Part shown: in pieces, positions 7,440 to 28,675 of the stretch
Numbering within the stretch: position 1 is the first letter of the stretch
Layout of the letters: each line of letters starts with the position of its first letter
Source of the DNA: a virus
Lineage: Duplodnaviria > Heunggongvirae > Uroviricota > Caudoviricetes
Strand: one strand, 5' to 3'
Virus record (IMG/VR): IMGVR_UViG_2713896776_000006
DNA: 35,721 nt
Position numbers and translations under genes: made by a program
Notes under the pieces: generated by a model
Told to the model about the DNA's origin: nothing
The model's database searches: none
Seen by the model: the letters and a program-made list of their open reading frames with translations, nothing else

Positions 7440-7499
7440 TGCGCGTTAAAGATTTTATTATGGCTATTGACTTGCTTTGTGTTCAGAAATGAACTAACT

Positions 7500-9974
7500 A
7501 TGAAATCCCACTTAATTTATATGATAGGTTTTATAATGGATATTAATTTTACAGAGTTGATTATTAGCAAGCAAACTATTGATTATGCTAAACTAGTTAC
7601 AAATATTTGTTCTGGAAAGGCAATGTTGTTTTTGGGGGCGGGTTTCTCTAAAGAAGCTACGAATATTAATGATACTAATCCTTCTTCTTCAATAGAGCTA
7701 TCTCATATATTATGTGGTCTTTGTTCAATACCTAAAAATGATAATCTACGCTTTTCTTCTGATTATTACTTAGCAAAAAACTCGTCATTAAAATTAATAG
7801 AACTATTAATTTATAATTATTCTATAAAAACAACATCGGAGAACCAAAATATAATCGCATCGCTACCATGGAAACGTTGTTACACAACTAATTATGACCG
7901 ATGTTTTGAGATCGCAGCTGAATCATCCGGTAATAAATTCGAAACTATAGATCTTGAGCATAAAACAAAGGAATATTATAAGCGCAAGAATTTATGTATT
8001 CATCTTAATGGTTCAATTAATAATATTTCTACTGAAACGCTTGATGATTCATTCAAACTTTCTGATTCATCTTATTCAAGCCCTGACTCTTTTACTGACT
8101 CTGAATGGTTCTATTATTTTAAAAGAGATTTAGATAGGTGTGGCGCGATCGTTTTTATCGGTTATTCAATGTATGATATTGAAATAAAAAAAATCCTTTC
8201 TACCTTACCTCAATTAAAAGAGAAAACATTTTTTGTAACTAGTCTCAATCCTGATATCGAATTAGAATTTACTCTAGAAAAATTCGGTACCGTTTTGCCT
8301 ATAGGTTTGAGTGGTTTTGCCAATAGAATAAGAGATAATATTACTTCAGTATCAGAAGAGCAGGAGTATAAGCTACAGTCACTTTTTCTTCATGATATAA
8401 CCAATGAATCAAGTTCTATTAGAGATGAAGAGGTTGAAAAAATGTTGATGTATGGTGATTTGGATGATCATCATATTGATAATTTTATACTTGGTAATAC
8501 TAAGGTACCGTTTTTAGTAAAAAGAAGTGAAATTGATAAAGCTGTTTCATTAATTGAACAATCAAAAAATGTAATTATTTATTCGGCGCTTGGAAACGGA
8601 AAAACCATCTTATTGAAAGAGCTAAGGAGTGTTTTATCCGTCGGTGGTTATGATGTTTATACAGTGGCCGATATAGATGGTGATTTTATATCAGATATTG
8701 ACTATATAGCACAATCATCCATGAAAAATATCATATTACTTGATGGGTATGAGAAGAATCTTGAATTAATGGAACATGTGGGCAGAGCTGCTTACGAAAA
8801 TGTACTAATACTTGCTACTGCCCGTGTTGCAGATCATGAATATCACAGAGATGATTTGGAGCGCATAAAATTCAAATATTCTGAAATAAATATTGATATG
8901 TTAGATGAGGTAGAGTTAAAAGATTTTTCAAAAATAATAGATAACTTAGGTCTTTGGGGAGATAATGCAGGGCTTAGTGTAGAGCAAAAGGTAAGATATT
9001 TAGCTAATGAGAATAACAGTCAATTCTCAATTGCATTGCTTACTCTTTTGGAGTCGCCGCAAATAAAAAATAAGATAAGTGATTTAATTACCGGGATTAA
9101 AAAGAGTAAGAGTCATGAAAACACAATTATTTCAATTTGTCTTTGTCAAATACTTGGCATTGAAACGAATCGAGGGATTATATCTGATCTTGCAGGCAAT
9201 GATTTGATTTATGATCCGGATTTTACTAATAACAGTGCGTTTAAGGCAATATTTAATTTCCATGGCGGTAGGATCATTAACGGGTCTAGTTTATTTTGCA
9301 TACATCTAATAAAAAATAATTTCACTCCTACTGTTATTATAGAGCGAATGCTTACTATTGCATCAAGGTTTAATCAATTAAACTCTAAGGATTATGAACA
9401 GGATAGAATATTTAAAGCTATGCTCAGGTTTTCTTTTGTTGAGCAGCTGCTTCCTGAAAGTATGAAAATATCAACGCTACAACGATATTATGAAAAGTTA
9501 AAAATTGAAGTTCCATGGCTAAATTCAAACCCACACTTCTGGTTGCAATACGCAATGTGTTTTATTGCTTACAAAAATTACCCAAAAGCACAACAGTATA
9601 TTGACCAGGCATATGCGTTAGCTGAAAAGCGAGCAAAATATCACACGAACAATATTGATACCCAGCAAGCAAAAATATATTTGCTTTCAAGCGAAAAGAT
9701 ACCAGATGGTAATATTGTATTCTCTAATTTCGAAAAGGCAAACAACCTTCTTAGTAATTTGGATGTGGATATTTACTCTCTGAGGCAGTTTTCGAGATAT
9801 AAAGATTTTCATTTGTCAAATTACAATAAGCTATCGAAGAGTAATAAAGTTAAATATATGGAAGCATGTAAACAGTCTTTAAATAAAATATCTGAATATG
9901 AAGGAGATGGCGGCGTAAGTCAATCATATGTTGCTAAAGTGATTGAAATATTAAAGCATATTACAAAGGTATAA
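7500..9974 (+). CDS. Candidate anti-phage defence protein: N-terminal SIR2-like (SIR2_2-type) NADase domain fused to a P-loop NTPase and a C-terminal helical domain
   Basis: Long uninterrupted ORF (824 aa from the first ATG; track ORF starts at 7467 with TTG). SIR2-family motifs in canonical order: LFLGAGFS, CYTTNYD, IHLNGS, VFIGYSMYD. Downstream a Walker A-like SALGNGKT, Walker B-like NIILLDGYE, then ILATAR. Strongly AT-rich relative to flanking phage genes. Located at the P2 tin/old variable locus between cos and Q. Confidence 0.7.
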   Translation: MKSHLIYMIGFIMDINFTELIISKQTIDYAKLVTNICSGKAMLFLGAGFSKEATNINDTNPSSSIELSHILCGLCSIPKNDNLRFSSDYYLAKNSSLKLIELLIYNYSIKTTSENQNIIASLPWKRCYTTNYDRCFEIAAESSGNKFETIDLEHKTKEYYKRKNLCIHLNGSINNISTETLDDSFKLSDSSYSSPDSFTDSEWFYYFKRDLDRCGAIVFIGYSMYDIEIKKILSTLPQLKEKTFFVTSLNPDIELEFTLEKFGTVLPIGLSGFANRIRDNITSVSEEQEYKLQSLFLHDITNESSSIRDEEVEKMLMYGDLDDHHIDNFILGNTKVPFLVKRSEIDKAVSLIEQSKNVIIYSALGNGKTILLKELRSVLSVGGYDVYTVADIDGDFISDIDYIAQSSMKNIILLDGYEKNLELMEHVGRAAYENVLILATARVADHEYHRDDLERIKFKYSEINIDMLDEVELKDFSKIIDNLGLWGDNAGLSVEQKVRYLANENNSQFSIALLTLLESPQIKNKISDLITGIKKSKSHENTIISICLCQILGIETNRGIISDLAGNDLIYDPDFTNNSAFKAIFNFHGGRIINGSSLFCIHLIKNNFTPTVIIERMLTIASRFNQLNSKDYEQDRIFKAMLRFSFVEQLLPESMKISTLQRYYEKLKIEVPWLNSNPHFWLQYAMCFIAYKNYPKAQQYIDQAYALAEKRAKYHTNNIDTQQAKIYLLSSEKIPDGNIVFSNFEKANNLLSNLDVDIYSLRQFSRYKDFHLSNYNKLSKSNKVKYMEACKQSLNKISEYEGDGGVSQSYVAKVIEILKHITKV

Positions 9975-21680: not shown

Positions 21681-23975
21681 ATGAGCACGAAATTTAAAAC
21701 CGTTATCACTACTGCCGGAGCCGCGAAGCTGGCAGCCGCCACTGTTCCCGGCGGGAAAAAAGTAAACCTGTCTGCAATGGCCGTGGGTGACGGTAATGGC
21801 AAATTGCCGGTGCCGGATGCCGGTCAGACGAAACTGGTGCATGAGGTCTGGCGTCACGCTCTGAATAAAGTCAGCGTGGATAACAAGAATAAAAACTATA
21901 TCGTGGCTGAACTGGTTGTACCGCCCGAAGTGGGCGGCTTCTGGATGCGTGAGCTTGGCCTGTACGATGATGCGGGAACGCTAATTGCCGTGGCGAACAT
22001 GGCCGAAAGTTATAAACCCGCTCTTGCCGAAGGCTCAGGGCGTTCGCAGACCTGCCGCATGGTCATCATCGTCAGCAGTGTGGCCTCAGTGGAGCTGACC
22101 ATTGACACCACAACGGTGATGGCGACGCAGGATTACGTTGATGACAAAATTGCAGAGCATGAACAGTCACGACGTCACCCGGACGCCTCGCTGACCGCAA
22201 AAGGTTTTACTCAGTTAAGCAGTGCGACCAACAGCACGTCTGAAACACTGGCCGCAACGCCGAAAGCGGTAAAGGCCGCCTATGACCTTGCTAACGGGAA
22301 ATATACTGCGCAGGATGCCACCACGGCGCGAAAAGGCCTTGTTCAGCTCAGTAGTGCGACCAACAGCACGTCTGAAACGCTCGCCGCAACGCCGAAAGCG
22401 GTAAAGGCCGCCTATGACCTTGCTAACGGGAAATACACTGCACAGGACGCCACCACCGCGCGAAAAGGTCTTGTCCAGCTCAGTAGCGCCACCAACAGCG
22501 ATTCTGAAACGCTTGCGGCAACACCAAAGGCGGTTAAGACAGCGTATGACCTTGCTAACGGGAAATACACTGCACAGGATGCCACCACGGCGCGAAAAGG
22601 TCTTGTCCAGCTCAGTAGCGCCACCAACAGTGATTCTGAAACCCTCGCGGCAACGCCAAAAGCGGTGAAGTCTGCCTATGACAATGCTGAAAAACGTCTT
22701 CAGAAAGATCAGAACGGTGCGGATATTCCGGGAAAGGATACCTTCACGAAAAATATCGGTGCCTGTCGTGCTTATAGCGGCGCTTTGAGCACTGAAGCCG
22801 GAAACTGGACAACCGCTCAGTTTATTGAATGGCTGGATTCCCGTGGTGCATTTAATCATCCGTACTGGATGTGCAAAGGCTCCTGGTCATATGCAAATAA
22901 CAAAATCATTACGGATACCGGATGTGGTGATATCCACCTGGCTGGTTGTGTCGTCGAAGTCATGGGAACAAAATCTGCAATCACTATTCGAGTGACCACG
23001 CCGACAACATCAAGCGGTGGCGGTACAACCAGCGCGCAATTCACTTACATTAATCATGGGGACGGCTACTCCCCCGGCTGGCGTCGTGACTGGAATCGTC
23101 AGGGCGACGCAATGACCGGAACGATTAATCAGGATGGCGGAAGCCAGAATGCCTATATGTCTACGGCCTTATGTTCAGGCACCAGAGGCGGCAAAAAATA
23201 TCTCAGAAAGTTTCGTGGTGGAGAAGGAGACACTATCTGGCATGAAACAGTGCAGGGCGGGGTAATTCGCTGGGCGACAGGAAACTATGACGATCAGGAA
23301 GAATTATCACTCAGCTCCGCTTATGGTCTCCGTTCTAGAGGTGAAATTACATCACTCAGTGCTAATGGTCTGCGCATTGCTTATGGCAATTATGGATTCT
23401 TTATCAGGAATGATGGCGGCAGCACATATTTAATGCTGACGGCCTCTGGCGATAAATTTGGGACATGGAACGGTTTAAGACCGCTGACTATCAATAACGC
23501 TAATGGCGGAGTGTCAATGGGGCATGGCCTGAGTGTTACTGGTGATATTGCCTCAAGTACCAAAGTACGCGCCGGTAGCGGGAAAAAGTTCACGGTCAGC
23601 AGCAGTAATACATCCACGAAGGAAGCCGCATTCAATTTGTGGGGAAACTCAAGTCGTCCGGTGGTGGCTGAATTAGGTGATGATGCAGGCTGGCATTTTT
23701 ACAGTCAGAGAAATACAGATAACAGCATCACTTTTGCTGTTAACGGTCAGGTATCACCATCTAACTATAGTAATTTTGATTCCCGTTATGTACGCGATAT
23801 CCGGCTTGGGACTCGAGTTGTCCAGACCATGCAGAAAGGGGTGATGTATGAGAAAGCAGGGCACGTAATTACCGGGCTTGGTATTGTCGGTGAAGTCGAT
23901 GGTGATGACCCCGCAGTATTCAGACCAATACAAAAATACATCAATGGCACATGGTATAACGTCGCACAGGTGTAA
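21681..23975 (+). CDS. H: Tail fibre protein (longer than P2 gpH; contains internal tandem repeats)
   Basis: 764-aa ORF between I and G; conserved N-terminus, repeated SSATNS..TLAATPKAVK..YDLANGKY motif, divergent C-terminal (receptor-binding) half. Confidence 0.9.
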   Translation: MSTKFKTVITTAGAAKLAAATVPGGKKVNLSAMAVGDGNGKLPVPDAGQTKLVHEVWRHALNKVSVDNKNKNYIVAELVVPPEVGGFWMRELGLYDDAGTLIAVANMAESYKPALAEGSGRSQTCRMVIIVSSVASVELTIDTTTVMATQDYVDDKIAEHEQSRRHPDASLTAKGFTQLSSATNSTSETLAATPKAVKAAYDLANGKYTAQDATTARKGLVQLSSATNSTSETLAATPKAVKAAYDLANGKYTAQDATTARKGLVQLSSATNSDSETLAATPKAVKTAYDLANGKYTAQDATTARKGLVQLSSATNSDSETLAATPKAVKSAYDNAEKRLQKDQNGADIPGKDTFTKNIGACRAYSGALSTEAGNWTTAQFIEWLDSRGAFNHPYWMCKGSWSYANNKIITDTGCGDIHLAGCVVEVMGTKSAITIRVTTPTTSSGGGTTSAQFTYINHGDGYSPGWRRDWNRQGDAMTGTINQDGGSQNAYMSTALCSGTRGGKKYLRKFRGGEGDTIWHETVQGGVIRWATGNYDDQEELSLSSAYGLRSRGEITSLSANGLRIAYGNYGFFIRNDGGSTYLMLTASGDKFGTWNGLRPLTINNANGGVSMGHGLSVTGDIASSTKVRAGSGKKFTVSSSNTSTKEAAFNLWGNSSRPVVAELGDDAGWHFYSQRNTDNSITFAVNGQVSPSNYSNFDSRYVRDIRLGTRVVQTMQKGVMYEKAGHVITGLGIVGEVDGDDPAVFRPIQKYINGTWYNVAQV
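22200..22690 (+). repeat. About 3.7 tandem copies of a 132-nt (44-aa) repeat inside H
   Basis: Repeat unit KG(F/L)(T/V)QLSSATNS(T/D)SETLAATPKAVKAAYDLANGKYTAQDATTAR seen three times in full plus a partial fourth copy; period measured as 132 nt (22203 to 22335). Confidence 0.85.
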
Positions 23976-23978
23976 TTT

Positions 23979-24506
23979 ATGCAACATTTAAAAAATATTA
24001 CTGCGGGTAATCCAAAAACTGTTGCCCAATATCAACTGACAAAAAATTTTGATGTTATCTGGTTATGGTCCGAAGAGGGAAAAAACTGGTATGAGGAAGT
24101 AAGTAATTTTCAGGAGGACACGATAAAGATTGTTTACGACGAGAATAATATAATTGTCGGCATCACCCGAGATGCTTCAACGCTTAACCCTGAAGGTTTT
24201 AGCGTTGTTGAGGTTCCTGATATTACTGCCAACCGACGTGCTGATGACTCAGGTAAATGGATGTTTAAGGATGGTGCCGTGATTAAGCGGATTTATACGG
24301 CAGACGAACAGCAGCAACTGGCAGAATCACAAAAGGCAACTTTGCTTTCCGAAGCCGAATCCGTGATTTTGCCGCTGGAGCGCGCTGTCAGGCTGAATAT
24401 GGCAACAGATGAGGAGCGTAGCCGACTGGATGCATGGGAGCGTTACAGCGTTCTGGTCAGTCGTGTGGATCCTGCAAATCCTGAATGGCCGGAAATGCCG
24501 CAATAA
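23979..24506 (+). CDS. G: Tail fibre assembly chaperone
   Basis: 175-aa ORF immediately after H; same length as P2 gpG. Confidence 0.9.
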
Positions 24507-24752
24507 GTTGTATGAGCTCTGGTGTGAGCTTACATATCTATGGCACAGAGTAAAGACTAATCTGACAGTCCGCTCTGTGCCAGAAGCGGACCTTCCAACA
24601 AGCTATATAGGAGCTAAAAAATCCTCATTGATCCAGGCTTTGAGCTTGTAAATTACCATTCCTAAAAGTTACATAATAAGTTCTATAATGTGTAGCATGG
24701 ATGATTAATATAGTTGTTTTAAGTTAAGTCCCTACAGGATATGGAGTTTTTT

Positions 24753-25205
24753 ATGTTACAACAACTGGCCTGTGAGTTTTTTATTGAGTTTTCACGATAT
24801 GAATATTGCCTTAAGGCATGTGGGATTTTAATCAATGGAGGCCATTTAAAAGCTGACTGGAATGGATATTCCGATCAGGTGCGTGACGTTATCGAAAACC
24901 CGTCTACCCCTAAACTTAATGAAGCGATTCATTACTTCGAAGAGCATCCCCCTAAAAAACAGATTTACGGTGAAAAAGGGATCATGTGGTCGGAAAAACT
25001 ACCGAGTTCCCGGCACCGGGCTGAACTAATTTTACTGCTGGTCTGTCGAGTAAGAAACAATCTCTTTCACGGCGGAAAATTCAATGGTAATTGGTTTGAA
25101 CCGGAACGCAGTGAGCAGTTAATCCGGCACGCCCTCACCATCCTACGGGCCTGTGCGGAGAAACACGCCGGAGTGAAAGATGCCTATGAGAACAAACACT
25201 TCTGA
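24753..25205 (+). CDS. Cargo hypothetical protein with HEPN-like Rx4-6H motif (RVRNNLFHGG)
   Basis: 150 aa from the ATG preceded by GGAG with 6-nt spacer (track ORF starts 4 codons earlier). AT-rich. Only a single short motif supports the HEPN idea. Confidence 0.5.
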   Translation: MLQQLACEFFIEFSRYEYCLKACGILINGGHLKADWNGYSDQVRDVIENPSTPKLNEAIHYFEEHPPKKQIYGEKGIMWSEKLPSSRHRAELILLLVCRVRNNLFHGGKFNGNWFEPERSEQLIRHALTILRACAEKHAGVKDAYENKHF

Positions 25206-25311: not shown

Positions 25312-25357
25312 GGGGAGCAGGTCAAGACGAAGCTAGCCCTGCTCCCCGTGATTTTTA
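25312..25357. terminator. Bidirectional terminator-like hairpin between convergent cargo genes
   Basis: 10-bp stem ggggagcagg/cctgctcccc with 16-nt loop, followed by gtgattttta. Confidence 0.5.
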
Positions 25358-25383: not shown

Positions 25384-26109
25384 CTATTGCCTTTTTTTCA
25401 GGTCATCAAGAATGCTCTGCTTTTCGGCAACCAACATTTTGTACACATCATCATCACTTTTAAGATTAAATTTGAAATGCGATCGTCCCACAGATATGCC
25501 GGATACGCCTTCAATCCACATATCCTTGGCTATTTTTTCATCTGAGTCATCTAGGGCATTTTCAGAAATCTTATCAAGGGATGAGAGGATATCCCCATGC
25601 AACTGTAACAATTTTTTATATGTGATTGATGGCGAATTTTCCTTCCTCCGAGAGATCAAGCTTAGATCATTAATCTGGGCGTTAACGCGATCAATAATAC
25701 CAAAAACTCCTAAGCGAGCCTCAACTGACTTGCGCTCAGATTTATGTTTTGCGCCTGTTTGAAATAACAGCTCGGAGTTAATATACGAACCTAGATCATG
25801 TGCATCTTTCACCATGGTTCTAACACCCTCACTAAAGTGTGGGTATCCGATAACTAGCCCCCCCAGTAGTGGGATGATCTTACCGTAAGCGGTGATTTTC
25901 GCGATGATTGAGCCTTCAGAGAACTCAACTGTTATCTCTACCTCACTTCCAATAAAAAAAGGTATTCGGCTCTTCGCAAAGGCAGTTATTTGCTTCTCAA
26001 TCTCATTGATTCTTAGTTTCTTATCTTGAGGGGTCGCATTTTTTAACCACTCAGGATTAACATGAACATACGATTGAGAAATGATATTCCCTGATACATA
26101 GTTTGCCAT
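25384..26109 (-). CDS. Cargo hypothetical protein (241 aa), unknown function
   Basis: ORF with GGAG SD 5 nt upstream of ATG; AT-rich; no motif I can assign. Confidence 0.6.
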   Translation of the reverse strand: MANYVSGNIISQSYVHVNPEWLKNATPQDKKLRINEIEKQITAFAKSRIPFFIGSEVEITVEFSEGSIIAKITAYGKIIPLLGGLVIGYPHFSEGVRTMVKDAHDLGSYINSELLFQTGAKHKSERKSVEARLGVFGIIDRVNAQINDLSLISRRKENSPSITYKKLLQLHGDILSSLDKISENALDDSDEKIAKDMWIEGVSGISVGRSHFKFNLKSDDDVYKMLVAEKQSILDDLKKRQ

Positions 26110-26292
26110 TCTTACTCCATTAACAAGTTACTTTAGCCACCTAGTAATACCCCTAATTTCAGGAGATATCGATATCATTCGCAACGATTGACCTGTTCCC
26201 AGTTGATTGATACACGACATTGTGAGCAAGATCTATGGCAACTCAAGTACGAACGTCTGCTGATCGCTCAGAGCGGACGGCCTTCGTGGAAG

Positions 26293-27102
26293 TTAGTCTT
26301 GTTGTGGTGGCTCTTTCCAGCGCCATTGCAAGACATTCTCATCGCTGAGAATAAACAGTCCTGACCAAATTGCCGTCCAAAACTGGACATTCAGACACCA
26401 TGGGCGTGTCATAAACCAGCGTAACGGTTTTGCTTCAAACAGATGAATACCTTTTCGCGATGGTGAATATAACGGGGGGCGTCCCACTAACGGCAGACAA
26501 AAGCCCCATTTCCAATATTCAGCAATACGCCTTCGGGCAAATTCAATTGCATTACAGTTCCAGATGATACCCCAACGCCGTTTCCATGTATCATTGAGAC
26601 ACCAGTTTTGCATTAGCGAATATTTGGGCGAATTGTCAATAGATATACTTTCACCAGTCATTAAATTTATCGTGCAATATTTTAACTGGTACTGTTCAAC
26701 CGTAAATGCGAATCCATCATCTAGAATAAGTACATCAAGTGTAGGAATATTTGAAAGCGTTAATATTATCGGTGAGTTATTTACATCATGAATGCATAGT
26801 GTTTCTTGGTAGCGTAAGCCACTGCCAATGGCTTCAAAAACAAGTTCAACTTGTTGCAGTGGTTCCTCTTTGCTTCTGAAAGCAATACGTGAACAACGAG
26901 GTTCTTTATCTGTCAACTGAGCAAATCGTAGACTGTACTCCAAATAATTCCCTAAGGAATGCCAGCTCGCCCCTAGCCTGTGTCTCACTGCCCAGCGCTC
27001 ATGTGAGAGTTGATAAGTTTTTATCAGCATTATCTGGGTAAGAGTAGACCAGCATTTCTTCACTACTGTAACAATTGCACCAAAAGGAACAGGAAGTGAC
27101 AT
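26293..27102 (-). CDS. Cargo hypothetical protein (269 aa, Trp-rich), unknown function
   Basis: ORF upstream of and co-oriented with the 241-aa gene (183-bp gap); weak GGGG SD; AT-rich; start uncertain (alternative internal Met). Confidence 0.5.
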   Translation of the reverse strand: MSLPVPFGAIVTVVKKCWSTLTQIMLIKTYQLSHERWAVRHRLGASWHSLGNYLEYSLRFAQLTDKEPRCSRIAFRSKEEPLQQVELVFEAIGSGLRYQETLCIHDVNNSPIILTLSNIPTLDVLILDDGFAFTVEQYQLKYCTINLMTGESISIDNSPKYSLMQNWCLNDTWKRRWGIIWNCNAIEFARRRIAEYWKWGFCLPLVGRPPLYSPSRKGIHLFEAKPLRWFMTRPWCLNVQFWTAIWSGLFILSDENVLQWRWKEPPQQD

Positions 27103-27361
27103 TACTAAACCCCTACAAATATCAGATAATTAGGTTTTATATCATTTCAGTCAGTGTAATCAAATGATAATCAGGATTGGGGCTAATCTTGAACGCCACT
27201 AAAGATCGGCAACAATGGGGATCCAATGTTTCGTTAGTGATTTTTCGCATTAGCAGATACATGCTTACTTCCGCTCCTCGCTCAAAGCAGACTGTCAGAT
27301 TTGATAGCGTTTGGGCTATGTAAATTGTCAGTTGGAAAATGAGTGAGTGCAAATCAGGACA

Positions 27362-27484: not shown

Positions 27485-28675
27485 ATGAGTGACTATCATC
27501 ACGGCGTGCAGGTGCTGGAGATTAACGACGGCACCCGCGTCATTTCCACCGTATCCACCGCCATTGTCGGCATGGTCTGCACGGCCAGCGATGCGGATGC
27601 GGAAACCTTCCCCCTCAATAAACCGGTGCTGATTACCAATGTGCAGAGCGCAATTGCAAAGGCCGGTAAAAAAGGCACGCTGGCGGCATCGTTGCAGGCC
27701 ATCGCTGACCAGTCAAAACCGGTCACCGTTGTCGTGCGCGTGGAAGACGGCACCGGCGACGACGAGGAAACGAAACTCGCGCAGACCGTTTCCAATATCA
27801 TCGGCACCACCGACGAAAACGGTCAGTACACCGGACTGAAAGCCCTGCTGGCGGCGGAGTCGGTAACCGGTGTTAAACCTCGCATTCTCGGCGTGCCGGG
27901 ACTGGACACCAAAGAGGTGGCGGTTGCACTGGCATCAGTCTGTCAGAAGCTGCGCGCTTTCGGGTATATCAGCGCATGGGGCTGTAAAACCATTTCCGAG
28001 GTGAAAGCTTACCGCCAGAATTTCAGCCAGCGTGAGCTGATGGTCATCTGGCCGGATTTCCTCGCATGGGATACGTTCACCAGTACCACTGCCACCGCGT
28101 ATGCCACCGCCCGTGCGCTGGGTCTGCGTGCCAAAATCGACCAGGAGCAGGGCTGGCATAAAACGCTGTCCAACGTCGGGGTGAACGGTGTTACCGGCAT
28201 CAGCGCATCTGTATTCTGGGATTTGCAGGAGTCCGGCACCGATGCTGACCTGTTGAACGAGTCAGGCGTCACTACGATTATTCGCCGCGACGGTTTCCGA
28301 TTCTGGGGTAACCGTACCTGCTCTGATGACCCGCTGTTCCTCTTTGAAAACTACACCCGCACCGCGCAGGTGCTGGCCGACACGATGGCTGAGGCGCACA
28401 TGTGGGCGGTGGACAAGCCCATCACCGCAACGCTGATTCGCGACATCGTTGACGGCATCAATGCCAAATTCCGTGAGCTGAAAACAAACGGCTATATCGT
28501 GGATGCGACCTGCTGGTTCAGCGAAGAATCCAACGATGCGGAAACCCTCAAGGCCGGAAAACTGTATATCGACTATGACTATACCCCGGTGCCTCCTCTC
28601 GAAAACCTGACCCTGCGCCAGCGTATTACTGATAAATACCTGGCAAATCTGGTCACCTCGGTTAACAGCAATTAA
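27485..28675 (+). CDS. FI: Contractile tail sheath protein
   Basis: 396-aa ORF; same length and order as P2 gpFI. Confidence 0.95.
   Translation: MSDYHHGVQVLEINDGTRVISTVSTAIVGMVCTASDADAETFPLNKPVLITNVQSAIAKAGKKGTLAASLQAIADQSKPVTVVVRVEDGTGDDEETKLAQTVSNIIGTTDENGQYTGLKALLAAESVTGVKPRILGVPGLDTKEVAVALASVCQKLRAFGYISAWGCKTISEVKAYRQNFSQRELMVIWPDFLAWDTFTSTTATAYATARALGLRAKIDQEQGWHKTLSNVGVNGVTGISASVFWDLQESGTDADLLNESGVTTIIRRDGFRFWGNRTCSDDPLFLFENYTRTAQVLADTMAEAHMWAVDKPITATLIRDIVDGINAKFRELKTNGYIVDATCWFSEESNDAETLKAGKLYIDYDYTPVPPLENLTLRQRITDKYLANLVTSVNSN

What the first reader, a model, noticed from the sequence alone, without database searches (positions are those of the whole stretch)
24753..25205. 150-aa cargo protein carries an Rx4-6H (HEPN-like) motif
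Seen in sequence: ...LLLVCRVRNNLFHGGKFNG... contains R-N-N-L-F-H, an Rx4H arrangement with a polar residue after the Arg, placed in the C-terminal third of a small protein. That is where the HEPN catalytic motif usually sits. Established knowledge: HEPN RNases are common toxins/effectors in abortive-infection and toxin-antitoxin systems. The assignment rests on one short motif, so it is a hypothesis only.
Basis: inference. Interest (0 to 1): 0.5.

Follow-up and report, generated by a model that had tools for sequence, protein, structure and literature searches.

The report
Solo HEPN-type RNase gene in P2 prophage
A 150-residue protein carried as cargo in a P2-like prophage belongs to a large, unnamed family of stand-alone HEPN-type (RNA-cutting) domains that sit in phage-defence hotspots, so it is most likely a one-gene anti-phage RNase, though no experiment has tested this.

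Summary

The gene lies in the P2 Z/fun slot between tail genes G and FI, in a repeat-bounded cassette. Homologues (about 2,000 clusters) have no conserved partner. They occur in P4 and P2 hotspots, beside restriction systems, as the last gene of one SPARDA lineage, fused to Mrr, and inside phage tail modules.

Best reading: a solo HEPN RNase working like HepS of Gifsy-1, from a different family. No curated model or paper covers it. Function is untested.

The parts
24479..24591 (.). Left inverted repeat of the P2 'Z-region' cargo slot. It overlaps the last codons of gene G. The repeat core is at 24559-24595.
   Evidence: 96% identical to the 'left inverted repeat' annotated in P2-EC30 and P2-EC67. 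The core pairs with 27270-27301 (32 nt, 84%) and with 26251-26278 (28 nt, 79%).
24684..24689 (+). Perfect TATAAT hexamer in the AT-rich G-to-A spacer. It is a possible -10 element without a good -35, so the promoter is unproven.
   Evidence: Read from the sequence. The consensus scan called no sigma-70 promoter upstream of the gene. The spacer has about 36-41% GC.
24743..24746 (+). Shine-Dalgarno-like GGAG, 6 nt upstream of the ATG at 24753.
   Evidence: Sequence. It supports the 150-aa start, which RefSeq also uses.
24753..25205 (+). CDS of the 150-aa stand-alone HEPN-like protein (ORF-A; WP_001560595.1).
   Evidence: PHROG 19013, unknown function, E 4e-85. AF2 model pLDDT 89, pTM 0.86. Family of 1,995 representatives at 50% identity.
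24801..24815 (+). Codons for E17-Y-C-L-K21, an E-x3-K motif. This is the second conserved HEPN hallmark.
   Evidence: E17 is invariant and K21 at least 90% conserved in 125 representatives. The Ex3[KR] motif is described for HEPN in PMC3710099. It is retained about 80-86 residues before the Arg in most of the divergent viral homologues, and it was not part of that search pattern.
24948..24998 (+). Conserved P66-P67-K-K-Q70 entry and a beta-hairpin (residues 69-80, with W79). This is the insert between the two helical hairpins.
   Evidence: P67 is invariant; P66, Q70 and W79 are at least 90% conserved. DSSP strands at 69-73 and 76-80. [quoted passage not shown]
25053..25070 (+). Codons for R101-N-N-L-F-H106, the predicted catalytic Rx4H motif. 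It is followed by G107-G108-K109.
   Evidence: At least 90% conserved. It lies at the C-terminal end of helix 89-108, before loop 109-116. It aligns with the catalytic R401/N402/H406 of Csx1-Crn2.
25312..25356 (+). Terminator-like hairpin (stem arms 25312-25326 and 25333-25347) followed by a T-tract. It ends the ORF-A transcription unit.
   Evidence: Inverted repeat I8. The stem is kept in both the MFE and centroid folds. The simple scan missed it, apparently because of the mismatches in its long stem.
25384..26109 (-). ORF-B, 241 aa, unknown function, convergent with ORF-A. It shares the same repeat-bounded cassette but is not an obligate partner.
   Evidence: PHROG 31894, no other family hit. 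Frameshifted in SCU-101 and EC14 while A is intact. Homologues occur without A. One distant locus has B next to A. The model has low confidence.
26251..26278 (.). Internal copy of the inverted-repeat core. It marks the right end of the [A+B] cassette.
   Evidence: I2. The A+B segment found outside P2 ends at window 26278 (H8-H12: query 58-1779).
26293..27102 (-). ORF-C, 269 aa, unknown function. It is a separate cassette and not part of the HEPN unit.
   Evidence: No family in any library. Absent from the UPEC132 G-A-B-FI slot. Present alone in another integrase-bearing island.
27272..27359 (.). Right inverted repeat of the Z-region. The core is at 27270-27301.
   Evidence: 93% identical to the annotated right repeat of P2-EC67 and P2-EC30. 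Pairs with 24559-24590.

Best explanation
ORF-A is a minimal, stand-alone member of the HEPN superfamily of metal-independent RNases. It is carried as a self-contained cargo gene, with its own ribosome-binding site and its own terminator. It lies in the repeat-bounded Z/fun slot of a P2-like prophage.

Proposed mechanism, by inference:
1. The protein is made in the lysogen and forms a homo-oligomer.
2. Pairs of subunits bring two R101-N102-x3-H106 motifs together into a composite active site, with help from E17 and K21.
3. The resting oligomer is inactive or narrowly specific. This would explain why no antitoxin is needed.
4. On infection by another phage, a phage product switches it on.
5. 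It then cuts RNA (tRNA anticodon loops or other RNA), leaving 2',3'-cyclic phosphate and 5'-OH ends. Translation stops and the infection aborts.

This is the logic shown for HepS of prophage Gifsy-1, but ORF-A belongs to a different sequence family.

What is shown here: the gene, the conserved motifs, the predicted fold, the family's size, the lack of a fixed partner, and the defence-hotspot contexts. What is inferred: RNase activity, oligomerisation, the trigger, the target and the anti-phage phenotype.
For: **Motifs.** R101-N-N-L-F-H106-G-G-K and E17-x3-K21 are invariant or at least 90% conserved in 39 and in 125 homologues. These are the two motifs that define HEPN active sites (PMC3710099).

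**Sequence.** Among 125 members, the only Pfam families matched by three or more are HEPN_Apea (4, best E 2e-4) and HEPN_Swt1 (3). Abi_2 (2) and HEPN_RiboL-PSP (1) also appear. The best PDB profile hits, Csx1-Crn2 at E 0.07-0.11, align R/N/H onto R401/N402/H406. That paper shows these residues form the RNase site.

**Context.**
- The P2 Z/fun slot is a known accessory and defence locus (PMC13586616). The cargo has 37-48% GC against about 55% in the flanks.
- A homologue lies in a P4 hotspot next to Hachiman.
- Others lie beside a Type ISP enzyme, a Type II R-M system plus a P4 integrase, and DUF4365.
- Homologues are the last gene after a SPARDA pair, after an R-M pair, after AbiEii-WYL and after PDC-S06.
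- One representative is fused to Mrr_cat.

**No fixed partner.** The commonest neighbouring family occurs in 5 of 74 loci. ORF-B is frameshifted in strains where A is intact.

**Precedent.** HepS shows that a partner-less prophage HEPN can be non-toxic and trigger-activated (PMC13043305).
Against: - No experiment bears on this protein or on any family member. An accession search of the literature found nothing.
- The window protein hits no Pfam, NCBIfam or PADLOC model, even at E up to 1-10.
- The PDB profile hits are below significance.
- No sigma-70 promoter was called upstream, so expression in the lysogen is not shown.
- Divergent homologues sit inside phage tail operons with overlapping start and stop codons. 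That implies late lytic expression, which fits a counter-defence or lytic-cycle role as well as it fits defence.
- About half of the bacterial homologues follow a close same-strand upstream gene (crude ORF calling). The family may therefore often act as an accessory rather than alone.
Confidence: 0.55

Rival explanations
1. Accessory RNase. The family is a plug-in subunit that serves neighbouring defence systems. It might, for example, make or trim guide RNAs for short Argonautes, or add collateral RNA cleavage to DNA-targeting nucleases. On this view the P2 copy is an orphan, or it works with ORF-B or with host systems.
For: - 35 of 73 loci have a same-strand upstream gene within 60 nt.
- Start and stop codons overlap or nearly overlap with a short pAgo in five loci. 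Two of those show the full DUF4365-APAZ / pAgo / A order.
- The same terminal position is seen after an R-M pair, AbiEii-WYL, PDC-S06 and DUF4365.
- One representative is a fusion to Mrr_cat.
- There is precedent: Agap-HEPN makes guide RNAs for AmAgo (PMC11162769).
Against: - The upstream partners are unrelated to one another, and none recurs in more than 5 of 74 loci.
- The five pAgo cases are one clade (A proteins 71-95% identical, pAgos 81-99%), so they count as one event.
- 32 of 76 loci have no close same-strand neighbour.
- In this window the gene has its own RBS and terminator and no co-oriented partner.
- In the P4 hotspot it is convergent with Hachiman.
Confidence: 0.18
2. Phage-side function. 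The protein is a counter-defence or lytic-cycle RNase that benefits the phage. It might degrade host defence RNAs or host transcripts, rather than defend the lysogen.
For: - Two syntenic phage groups carry divergent members at fixed sites inside tail modules, co-oriented with structural genes and overlapping them.
- In this window the gene is co-oriented with late genes H and G, downstream of G, with no called promoter of its own.
Against: - Most family members are in bacterial chromosomes and islands, next to restriction, Hachiman, pAgo and Abi genes, and in P4 satellites. That pattern is typical of defence cargo rather than anti-defence genes.
- The P2 Z/fun slot is documented as an accessory and defence locus.
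- The viral loci were retrieved through the motif itself, so they are a selected sample.
Confidence: 0.12
3. Toxin-antitoxin pair. ORF-A is a HEPN toxin and the convergent ORF-B in the same cassette is its antitoxin or regulator.
For: - A and B move together as one repeat-bounded 1.7-kb segment in all 12 E. coli genomes that carry A.
- A B homologue (33% identity, E 1e-26) lies just upstream of a 37%-identical A homologue in a distant MAG.
Against: - B carries the same 1-nt frameshift at codon 50 in SCU-101 and EC14, while A is intact and identical.
- B homologues stand without A in Rahnella, Pectobacterium and a metagenomic lineage.
- About 70 other A loci have no B.
- The two genes are convergent, so they are not an operon.
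- No MNT-type nucleotidyltransferase partner is present.
Confidence: 0.05
4. Not a nuclease. The protein is a helical bundle with a HEPN-like motif that binds a ligand or a protein. It could be a regulator, or an inactive HEPN-derived adaptor.
For: - Foldseek finds no HEPN match.
- No curated HEPN model passes threshold.
- Some HEPN domains are non-catalytic.
Against: - Non-catalytic HEPN domains typically lose the Rx4-6H. Here R, N, H and the Ex3K are the most conserved residues across about 2,000 clusters.
Confidence: 0.1

Closest known systems
HepS ('HEPN Solo'), the abortive-infection protein of Salmonella prophage Gifsy-1 (PMC13043305; PDB 9OIJ/9OIK)
   Same: - Prophage-encoded, single HEPN domain, under 250 aa, with no partner or inhibitor gene.
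- R-N-x3-H motif: HepS has R100/N101/H105 and this protein has R101/N102/H106.
- The neighbourhood analysis gives the same result: no co-occurring partner, and often on prophages (searches compared).
- HepS supplies a tested answer to how a solo HEPN avoids self-toxicity. It rests as an auto-inhibited tetramer that a phage tail-tip protein opens.
   Different: - HepS has at least 203 residues with the motif at mid-chain. Its N- and C-terminal strands form the trigger-binding sheet.
- This protein has 150 residues with only 44 after H106, and a conserved internal PPxxQ hairpin.
- I could not obtain the HepS sequence for a direct comparison, because LT2 Gifsy-1 lacks it.
- The host phage is a P2-like myovirus, not a lambdoid siphovirus. 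The trigger and the target are unknown here.
ApeA / HEPN_Apea (PF18739; Anantharaman et al. 2013)
   Same: It is the best-scoring curated HEPN family for members of this family (4 of 125, best E 2e-4). One source names a homologue 'Apea-like HEPN domain-containing' (P0024). ApeA genes are embedded in R-M operons, as some members of this family are.
   Different: ApeA proteins carry a beta-rich N-terminal domain of about 300 aa, whereas this family is the bare 150-aa domain. The window protein does not match PF18739 even at E 10, and it hits no PADLOC model.
HepT toxins of HEPN-MNT (type VII) toxin-antitoxin systems (e.g. PDB 7ae2, 8xdj, 5yep)
   Different: They are defined by an adjacent MNT nucleotidyltransferase that neutralises them by AMPylation. 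Here no MNT gene is adjacent, and none is conserved across the family. Only one of 74 loci has an AbiEii-type NTase upstream.
HEPN domains of the type III CRISPR ancillary RNases Csx1 and Csm6 (Csx1-Crn2, PDB 8y7f and others)
   Same: The local motif is the same, [VW]-R-N-x-x-x-H-G-G-[KR], and the alignment falls on the catalytic R401/N402/H406. The Csx1 family also has beta-hairpin inserts.
   Different: Those enzymes are multi-domain (CARF-HTH-HEPN) and are activated by cyclic oligoadenylates. This protein has no sensor domain, and the match is below significance (E 0.07-0.11).
Agap-HEPN, the guide-RNA-producing partner of the long Argonaute AmAgo (PMC11162769)
   Same: It is a HEPN RNase co-encoded with a prokaryotic Argonaute. 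One clade of the present family is translationally coupled to a short pAgo of SPARDA type.
   Different: Agap is larger (catalytic R262/H267) with an extra domain, and it is reported to have no BLAST-detectable homologues outside its pAgo clade. The association here is with short pAgo plus DUF4365-APAZ, it is a single lineage, and it is absent from the window.
fun(Z) and other cargo of the P2 Z/fun locus
   Same: It is the same slot between tail-fibre assembly gene G and sheath gene FI, bounded by the same inverted repeats. The slot is recognised as a hotspot of accessory and defence genes in P2.
   Different: The gene content is different. None of the 80 phage records that match the flanks carries this cargo (at most 11% of the query is covered).

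Membership tests
HEPN superfamily (Anantharaman et al. 2013, PMC3710099) | Rx4-6H motif conserved across the family | tested here: met
   R101 and H106 are invariant in 39 sequences and at least 90% conserved in 125 representatives of 30-50% identity.
HEPN superfamily (Anantharaman et al. 2013, PMC3710099) | Residue immediately after the Arg is polar (mostly N, D or H) | tested here: met
   N102 is at least 90% conserved. Criterion quoted.
HEPN superfamily (Anantharaman et al. 2013, PMC3710099) | Second conserved acidic residue, typically within an Ex3[KR] motif, upstream of the Rx4-6H | tested here: met
   E17 is invariant and K21 at least 90% conserved (E-Y-C-L-K). The motif is retained in most of the divergent viral members. 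In the model it lies on the first helix, whereas the reference places it on helix-2. Its spatial proximity to R/H could not be checked because coordinates are not exposed.
HEPN superfamily (Anantharaman et al. 2013, PMC3710099) | [quoted passage not shown] | tested here: met
   AF2 model (pLDDT 89): helices 2-22, 36-64 (broken), 89-108 and 117-137. The motif at 101-106 ends helix 89-108, and the loop is 109-116. A beta-hairpin insert lies at 69-80. This is a predicted structure, not an experimental one.
HEPN superfamily (Anantharaman et al. 2013, PMC3710099) | Structural similarity to solved or predicted HEPN domains (Foldseek) | tested here: not met
   No match with E of 0.001 or better in PDB or BFVD. 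Top hits have TM about 0.2-0.36 and are unrelated. The AFDB50 library was unavailable.
HEPN superfamily (Anantharaman et al. 2013, PMC3710099) | Significant match to a curated HEPN profile | tested here: not met
   The window protein has no Pfam, NCBIfam or PADLOC hit at E up to 1-10. Only sub-threshold hits were seen in 10 of 125 members, all to HEPN families. The PDB profile hit to the Csx1 HEPN has E 0.07.
HEPN superfamily (Anantharaman et al. 2013, PMC3710099) | Metal-independent RNase activity dependent on R and H, acting through a dimeric composite site | not testable with these tools
   This needs biochemistry.
HepS family (PMC13043305) | Stand-alone HEPN protein under 250 aa, no conserved partner, often on prophages | tested here: met
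   150 aa. No neighbour family occurs in more than 5 of 74 loci. P2, P4 and other phage contexts.
HepS family (PMC13043305) | Sequence homology to STM14_3211 | not testable with these tools
   The sequence could not be obtained. LT2 Gifsy-1 lacks it and no supplements are held. Indirectly, profiles A1 and A3 hit no HepS chain in the PDB at E up to 10, provided 9OIJ/9OIK are in that copy.
HepS family (PMC13043305) | Architecture: motif at mid-chain (R100-H105 of at least 203 aa), with terminal strands forming the trigger-binding sheet | tested here: not met
   The protein has 150 aa with 44 residues after H106, and its C-terminus is helical.
HepS family (PMC13043305) | Auto-inhibited tetramer, activation by siphovirus J protein, tRNA anticodon cleavage | not testable with these tools
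   Experimental properties.
ApeA / HEPN_Apea (PF18739) | Match to PF18739 above its curated threshold | tested here: not met
   No hit for the window protein at E up to 10. 1 of 39 and 4 of 125 members give weak hits.
ApeA / HEPN_Apea (PF18739) | ApeA-NTD1, a beta-rich N-terminal domain of about 300 aa | tested here: not met
   The protein is 150 aa in total. The family is mostly 150-170 aa.
HEPN-MNT (HepT/MntA) toxin-antitoxin | Adjacent minimal nucleotidyltransferase antitoxin gene | tested here: not met
   The neighbours here are G, ORF-B and ORF-C, with no NTase. Across 74 loci only one has an NTase (AbiEii) upstream.
Short-pAgo SPARDA systems | Co-operonic short pAgo and DUF4365/REase-APAZ genes | tested here: not met
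   Absent from the window. Present only in one alphaproteobacterial clade of the family: pAgo-A in L049, L054, L057, L060 and L064, with the full DUF4365-APAZ / pAgo / A order shown for L054 and L060.

The most novel reading that the evidence does not exclude
This is the founding window-level example of a very large, unnamed clade of minimal HEPN modules: about 2,000 clusters at 50% identity, spread across many bacterial phyla, with one Methanosarcinaceae MAG. These modules would act as portable, trigger-gated RNase effectors. They would work alone in prophage and satellite hotspots, and they would also be bolted onto DNA-targeting systems as an extra RNA-cutting arm. The latter would include a previously undescribed third component of a SPARDA short-Argonaute lineage and an Mrr fusion. 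If so, current defence-annotation tools miss a common single-gene immune module, and some SPARDA systems are three-component systems.
Probability: 0.3. Interest if true: 0.65.

Novelty: new member of a known kind. Interest (0 to 1): 0.45.

Why it matters
Solo HEPN proteins on prophages have only just been shown to be complete immune systems (HepS, 2026). This family is built differently and is much larger: 1,995 representatives at 50% identity, against 393 non-redundant HepS homologues. It is invisible to Pfam, NCBIfam and PADLOC.

If it is an active, trigger-gated RNase, three things follow:
- It would add a common single-gene module to the defence catalogue.
- It would explain part of the 'unknown' cargo that fills P2 and P4 hotspots.
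- Its different architecture would offer a second test case for how a bare HEPN domain senses infection.

The SPARDA-linked clade would also make it possible to test whether some short-Argonaute systems use a dedicated RNase, as AmAgo does with Agap.

If the protein is inactive or purely accessory, the finding is an ordinary unannotated HEPN homologue.

Tried and rejected
**Searches that gave nothing**
- Pfam, NCBIfam and PADLOC on ORF-A, ORF-B and ORF-C gave no hits. PHROGs gave only families of unknown function.
- Foldseek of the model against PDB and against BFVD gave noise only. AFDB50 was not available.
- The first PDB profile search (A1) returned only spurious ubiquitin matches.
- A literature search for WP_001560595 and for 'Apea-like HEPN' found nothing.

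**Readings rejected**
- Toxin-antitoxin pairing with ORF-B. B is frameshifted where A is intact, and B homologues occur alone.
- A conserved two-gene system. Clustering the neighbours of 74 loci found no recurrent partner.
- Rousset's P2 '3HP' three-gene system or any other PADLOC candidate. No PADLOC hit, and the three ORFs are separable modules.
- The newly named P4 systems Bandua, Aernus, Toga, Reve, Crouga and Hailong. None is a small solo HEPN.
- The pAgo association as a general property of the family. It is one clade.

**Attempts that failed**
- Getting the HepS sequence from LT2 Gifsy-1. No ORF there has R100/H105. The paper's supplements are not held.
- Predicting the ORF-B structure. 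Confidence was low (pLDDT 68), so no fold search was run on it.

**Caveats on my own analyses**
- The viral loci cannot be used to show motif conservation, because they were retrieved by the motif itself.
- The operon statistics come from crude longest-ORF calling and are approximate.
Full report
**1. The observation**

Window 24753-25205 (+) is an open reading frame of 150 codons plus a stop codon. It contains the quoted peptide LLLVCRVRNNLFHGGKFNG. R101-N-N-L-F-H106 is encoded at 25053-25070. A GGAG lies 6 nt before the ATG at 24753, and RefSeq annotates the identical CDS as WP_001560595.1, 'hypothetical protein'.

The motif by itself is weak evidence. An Rx4-6H occurs in 19 of the window's 38 long ORFs and in 77% of shuffles of this protein. 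Even the stricter R[NDH]x3H occurs in 6% of shuffles.

**2. Where the gene sits**

The window is a P2-like prophage. Gene H (tail fibre, 21681-23975) and gene G (Caudo_TAP, 23979-24506) lie upstream, and FI (tail sheath, 27485-28675) lies downstream. The 3 kb between G and FI has 37-48% GC, against about 55% in the flanks. It holds three ORFs with no Pfam, NCBIfam or PADLOC match:
- ORF-A, the finding, on the + strand.
- ORF-B, 241 aa, 25384-26109, on the - strand.
- ORF-C, 269 aa, 26293-27102, on the - strand.

This is the P2 'Z/fun' slot, a recognised accessory and defence locus (PMC13586616). Eighty sequenced P2-type phages match only the flanks.

The inverted repeats annotated around this slot in P2-EC30 and P2-EC67 map to 24479-24591 and 27272-27359. 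A third copy of the repeat core lies at 26251-26278, between B and C. That is exactly where the A+B segment ends when it is found outside P2 (H8-H12). The cargo therefore consists of two repeat-bounded cassettes, [A+B] and [C].

ORF-A has its own terminator-like hairpin at 25312-25347 followed by a T-tract. No consensus promoter was called upstream. A perfect TATAAT at 24684-24689 lacks a -35 partner.

The gene is rare in E. coli. It occurs in 12 of 5,426 complete genomes, all at least 99.6% identical. Its settings there are:
- P2 slots with C (the five genomes H1-H5; annotation checked for NCTC9100).
- P2 slots without C (UPEC132).
- Next to a Type II R-M system and a P4-type integrase (EC14).
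- In a dynamin/patatin island (SCU-101).

**3. The family**

A word-seeded search found 625 homologues, nearly all 150-160 aa and unnamed. One source calls a member 'Apea-like HEPN domain-containing'.

An exhaustive profile search of 1.84 billion representatives found 1,995 proteins at E of 1e-3 or better and 1,489 at 1e-10 or better.

In 39 sequences of about 50% identity, the block R-x-R-N-N-L-F-H-G-G-K-F-N is invariant. In 125 representatives of 30-50% identity, the following stay at least 90% conserved or invariant:
- R101, N102, N103, L104, F105, H106, G107, G108, K109.
- E17 (invariant) and K21.
- P66, P67 (invariant), Q70, W79 and R119.

The family spans Proteobacteria, Acidobacteriota, Deinococcota, Bacteroidota, Planctomycetota, Chloroflexota, Bacillota and one Methanosarcinaceae MAG.

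**4. Is it HEPN?**

The reference analysis (PMC3710099) defines HEPN by five features:
- (a) A conserved Rx4-6H.
- (b) A polar residue after the R.
- (c) Often a second acidic residue within an Ex3[KR].
- (e) An insert between helices 2 and 3.

All five are met here:
- R101...H106 and N102 satisfy (a) and (b).
- E17-x3-K21 satisfies (c).
- The AlphaFold model (pLDDT 89, pTM 0.86) has helices at 2-22, 36-64, 89-108 and 117-137. The motif closes helix 89-108, and a beta-hairpin insert lies at 69-80. This satisfies (d) and (e).

Scanning the 125 members one by one against Pfam gives only weak hits. The only families matched by three or more members are HEPN_Apea (4, best E 2e-4) and HEPN_Swt1 (3). 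Abi_2 (2) and HEPN_RiboL-PSP (1) also appear.

The best PDB profile hits (E 0.07-0.11) are Csx1-Crn2 chains. They align VRNNLFHGGK with WRNSVAHGGR, which places R101/N102/H106 on R401/N402/H406. The structure paper shows these residues form the composite RNase site (PMC11317161).

Three points count against:
- Foldseek finds nothing in PDB or BFVD.
- No curated model reaches threshold for the window protein.

I put superfamily membership at about 0.85. Catalysis is inferred from retention of the catalytic residues.

**5. Partners and context**

I clustered the four genes on each side of 74 family loci. No neighbouring family occurs in more than 5 of them. The family is therefore not half of a fixed pair.

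ORF-B is not required:
- It carries the same 1-nt deletion at codon 50 in SCU-101 and EC14, while A stays intact.
- B homologues stand alone in Rahnella's main P2 hotspot beside a DprA-PRTase system, in Pectobacterium, and next to a PIN protein.
- One distant MAG does have a B homologue directly upstream of A (33% identity, E 1e-26). An occasional functional link cannot be excluded.

The contexts are those of defence cargo:
- The P4 hotspot: integrase, A, HamB, HamA, Delta, Psu.
- Next to a Type ISP enzyme.
- After DUF4365, at the ssrA integrase site.
- As the last, closely spaced gene after a C5-methylase plus HATPase restriction pair, after AbiEii-WYL, and after a PDC-S06 ABC ATPase.
- Fused to an Mrr_cat nuclease domain (P0131).
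- In five alphaproteobacterial loci, translationally coupled to a short Argonaute. Two of these show the full order DUF4365/REase-APAZ, then pAgo, then A, which is a SPARDA-type system. These five are one clade (A proteins 71-95% identical, pAgos 81-99%), so they count as one acquisition.

By crude ORF calling, 35 of 73 loci have a same-strand upstream gene within 60 nt, and 32 of 76 have no close same-strand neighbour.

In viral contigs, two syntenic phage groups carry divergent members at fixed sites inside tail modules. Those loci were retrieved through the motif itself, so they say nothing independent about motif conservation. Most of them do retain the Ex3[KR], which was not part of the search pattern.

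**6. How it most likely works**

The closest tested analogue is HepS of prophage Gifsy-1 (PMC13043305). It is a single HEPN protein with R100/N101/H105 and no partner gene. It is made constitutively as an auto-inhibited tetramer. It is opened by direct binding of the siphovirus tail-tip protein J, and it then cleaves tRNA anticodon loops and aborts the infection.

By analogy, ORF-A would be a gated solo HEPN RNase protecting the P2 lysogen. That would explain how a toxin-type domain persists with no antitoxin.

ORF-A is not demonstrably a HepS family member:
- HepS has at least 203 aa with a mid-chain motif and terminal trigger-binding strands. ORF-A has 150 aa with 44 residues after H106.
- I could not obtain the HepS sequence for a direct comparison.

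The main rival is an accessory role, as a plug-in RNase for neighbouring systems. Agap-HEPN, which makes guide RNAs for AmAgo, is the precedent (PMC11162769). A second rival is a phage-side or counter-defence role, suggested by the copies embedded in tail operons. The toxin-antitoxin reading with ORF-B and a non-catalytic reading are less likely.

**7. Novelty and verdict**

- The protein is a new, uncurated family within a known superfamily, and it fits a known functional concept (a solo prophage HEPN). I therefore rate it 'new member of a known kind'.
- The parts that may be new are the family's size, its absence from defence-annotation resources, and the three-gene SPARDA lineage.
- Nothing is known experimentally about this protein. 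A search for its RefSeq accession found no paper.
- Interest is 0.45. Confidence in the best explanation as a whole is 0.55.

Noticed in passing
window 24559-24595, 26251-26278, 27270-27301: Three copies of a roughly 30-nt inverted-repeat core divide the G-FI cargo into two cassettes, [A+B] and [C]. The A+B segment found in non-P2 islands ends exactly at the middle copy. This suggests cassette-wise exchange by recombination at these repeats.
   Followed up: partly
window 25384-26109 (-): ORF-B (241 aa, PHROG 31894) belongs to a small enterobacterial family of unknown function with a strongly conserved N-terminal 160 residues. Homologues sit alone in Rahnella's main P2 hotspot beside a DprA-PRTase system, and also next to a PIN-domain gene. 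It may itself be a defence candidate. The AF2 model was poor (pLDDT 68).
   Followed up: partly
window 26293-27102 (-): ORF-C (269 aa) has no match in Pfam, NCBIfam, PADLOC or PHROGs. It also occurs alone in an integrase-bearing island in other E. coli strains (for example APEC E12049).
   Followed up: partly
L054 4134-7441; L060 4207-7447; also L049, L057, L064: In one clade of alphaproteobacteria, a SPARDA-type operon (DUF4365/REase-APAZ followed by a short pAgo) carries a family member as a translationally coupled third gene. I found no description of this in the SPARDA papers I searched.
   Followed up: partly
P0131 (349 aa): A natural fusion of an Mrr_cat restriction-endonuclease domain (residues 61-171, E 2e-20) to this HEPN-like domain (residues 201-348).
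   Followed up: no
L098 3423-3935; L099 3396-3914; L118-L135: Divergent family members (about 28% identity, 166-200 aa) occupy fixed positions inside the tail-gene modules of two unrelated phage groups. In one group the gene lies upstream of the baseplate V/W/J genes and overlaps the preceding gene by 4 nt. In the other it follows the tail-tube genes and is followed by a reverse-oriented HTH gene.
   Followed up: partly
L014 7001-7450; L015 3777-4226: Copies that are 100% and 99% identical to the E. coli protein, together with ORF-B, occur in a Pantoea MAG and in Mangrovibacter yixingensis. This means either very recent cross-genus transfer or assembly contamination.
   Followed up: no
window 7467-9974 (+): The other classic P2 cargo slot, between replication gene A and the portal gene, holds an 835-aa protein whose N-terminus matches the ThsA-type SIR2 domain (PADLOC ThsA1, E 3e-12, residues 42-250). 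The prophage therefore carries a second, recognisable defence-type gene.
   Followed up: partly
window 21681-23975 (+): The tail-fibre protein H contains about four tandem copies of a unit of roughly 44 residues (…TAQDATTARKGLVQLSSATNS[TD]SETLAATPKAVK.AYDLANGKY…).
   Followed up: no
L053 5282-6955: The restriction-type protein upstream of a Polynucleobacter family member combines HATPase_c_3 with a C-terminal Hypoth_Ymh domain (PF09509). It sits after a C5 methyltransferase and directly before the family member.
   Followed up: no
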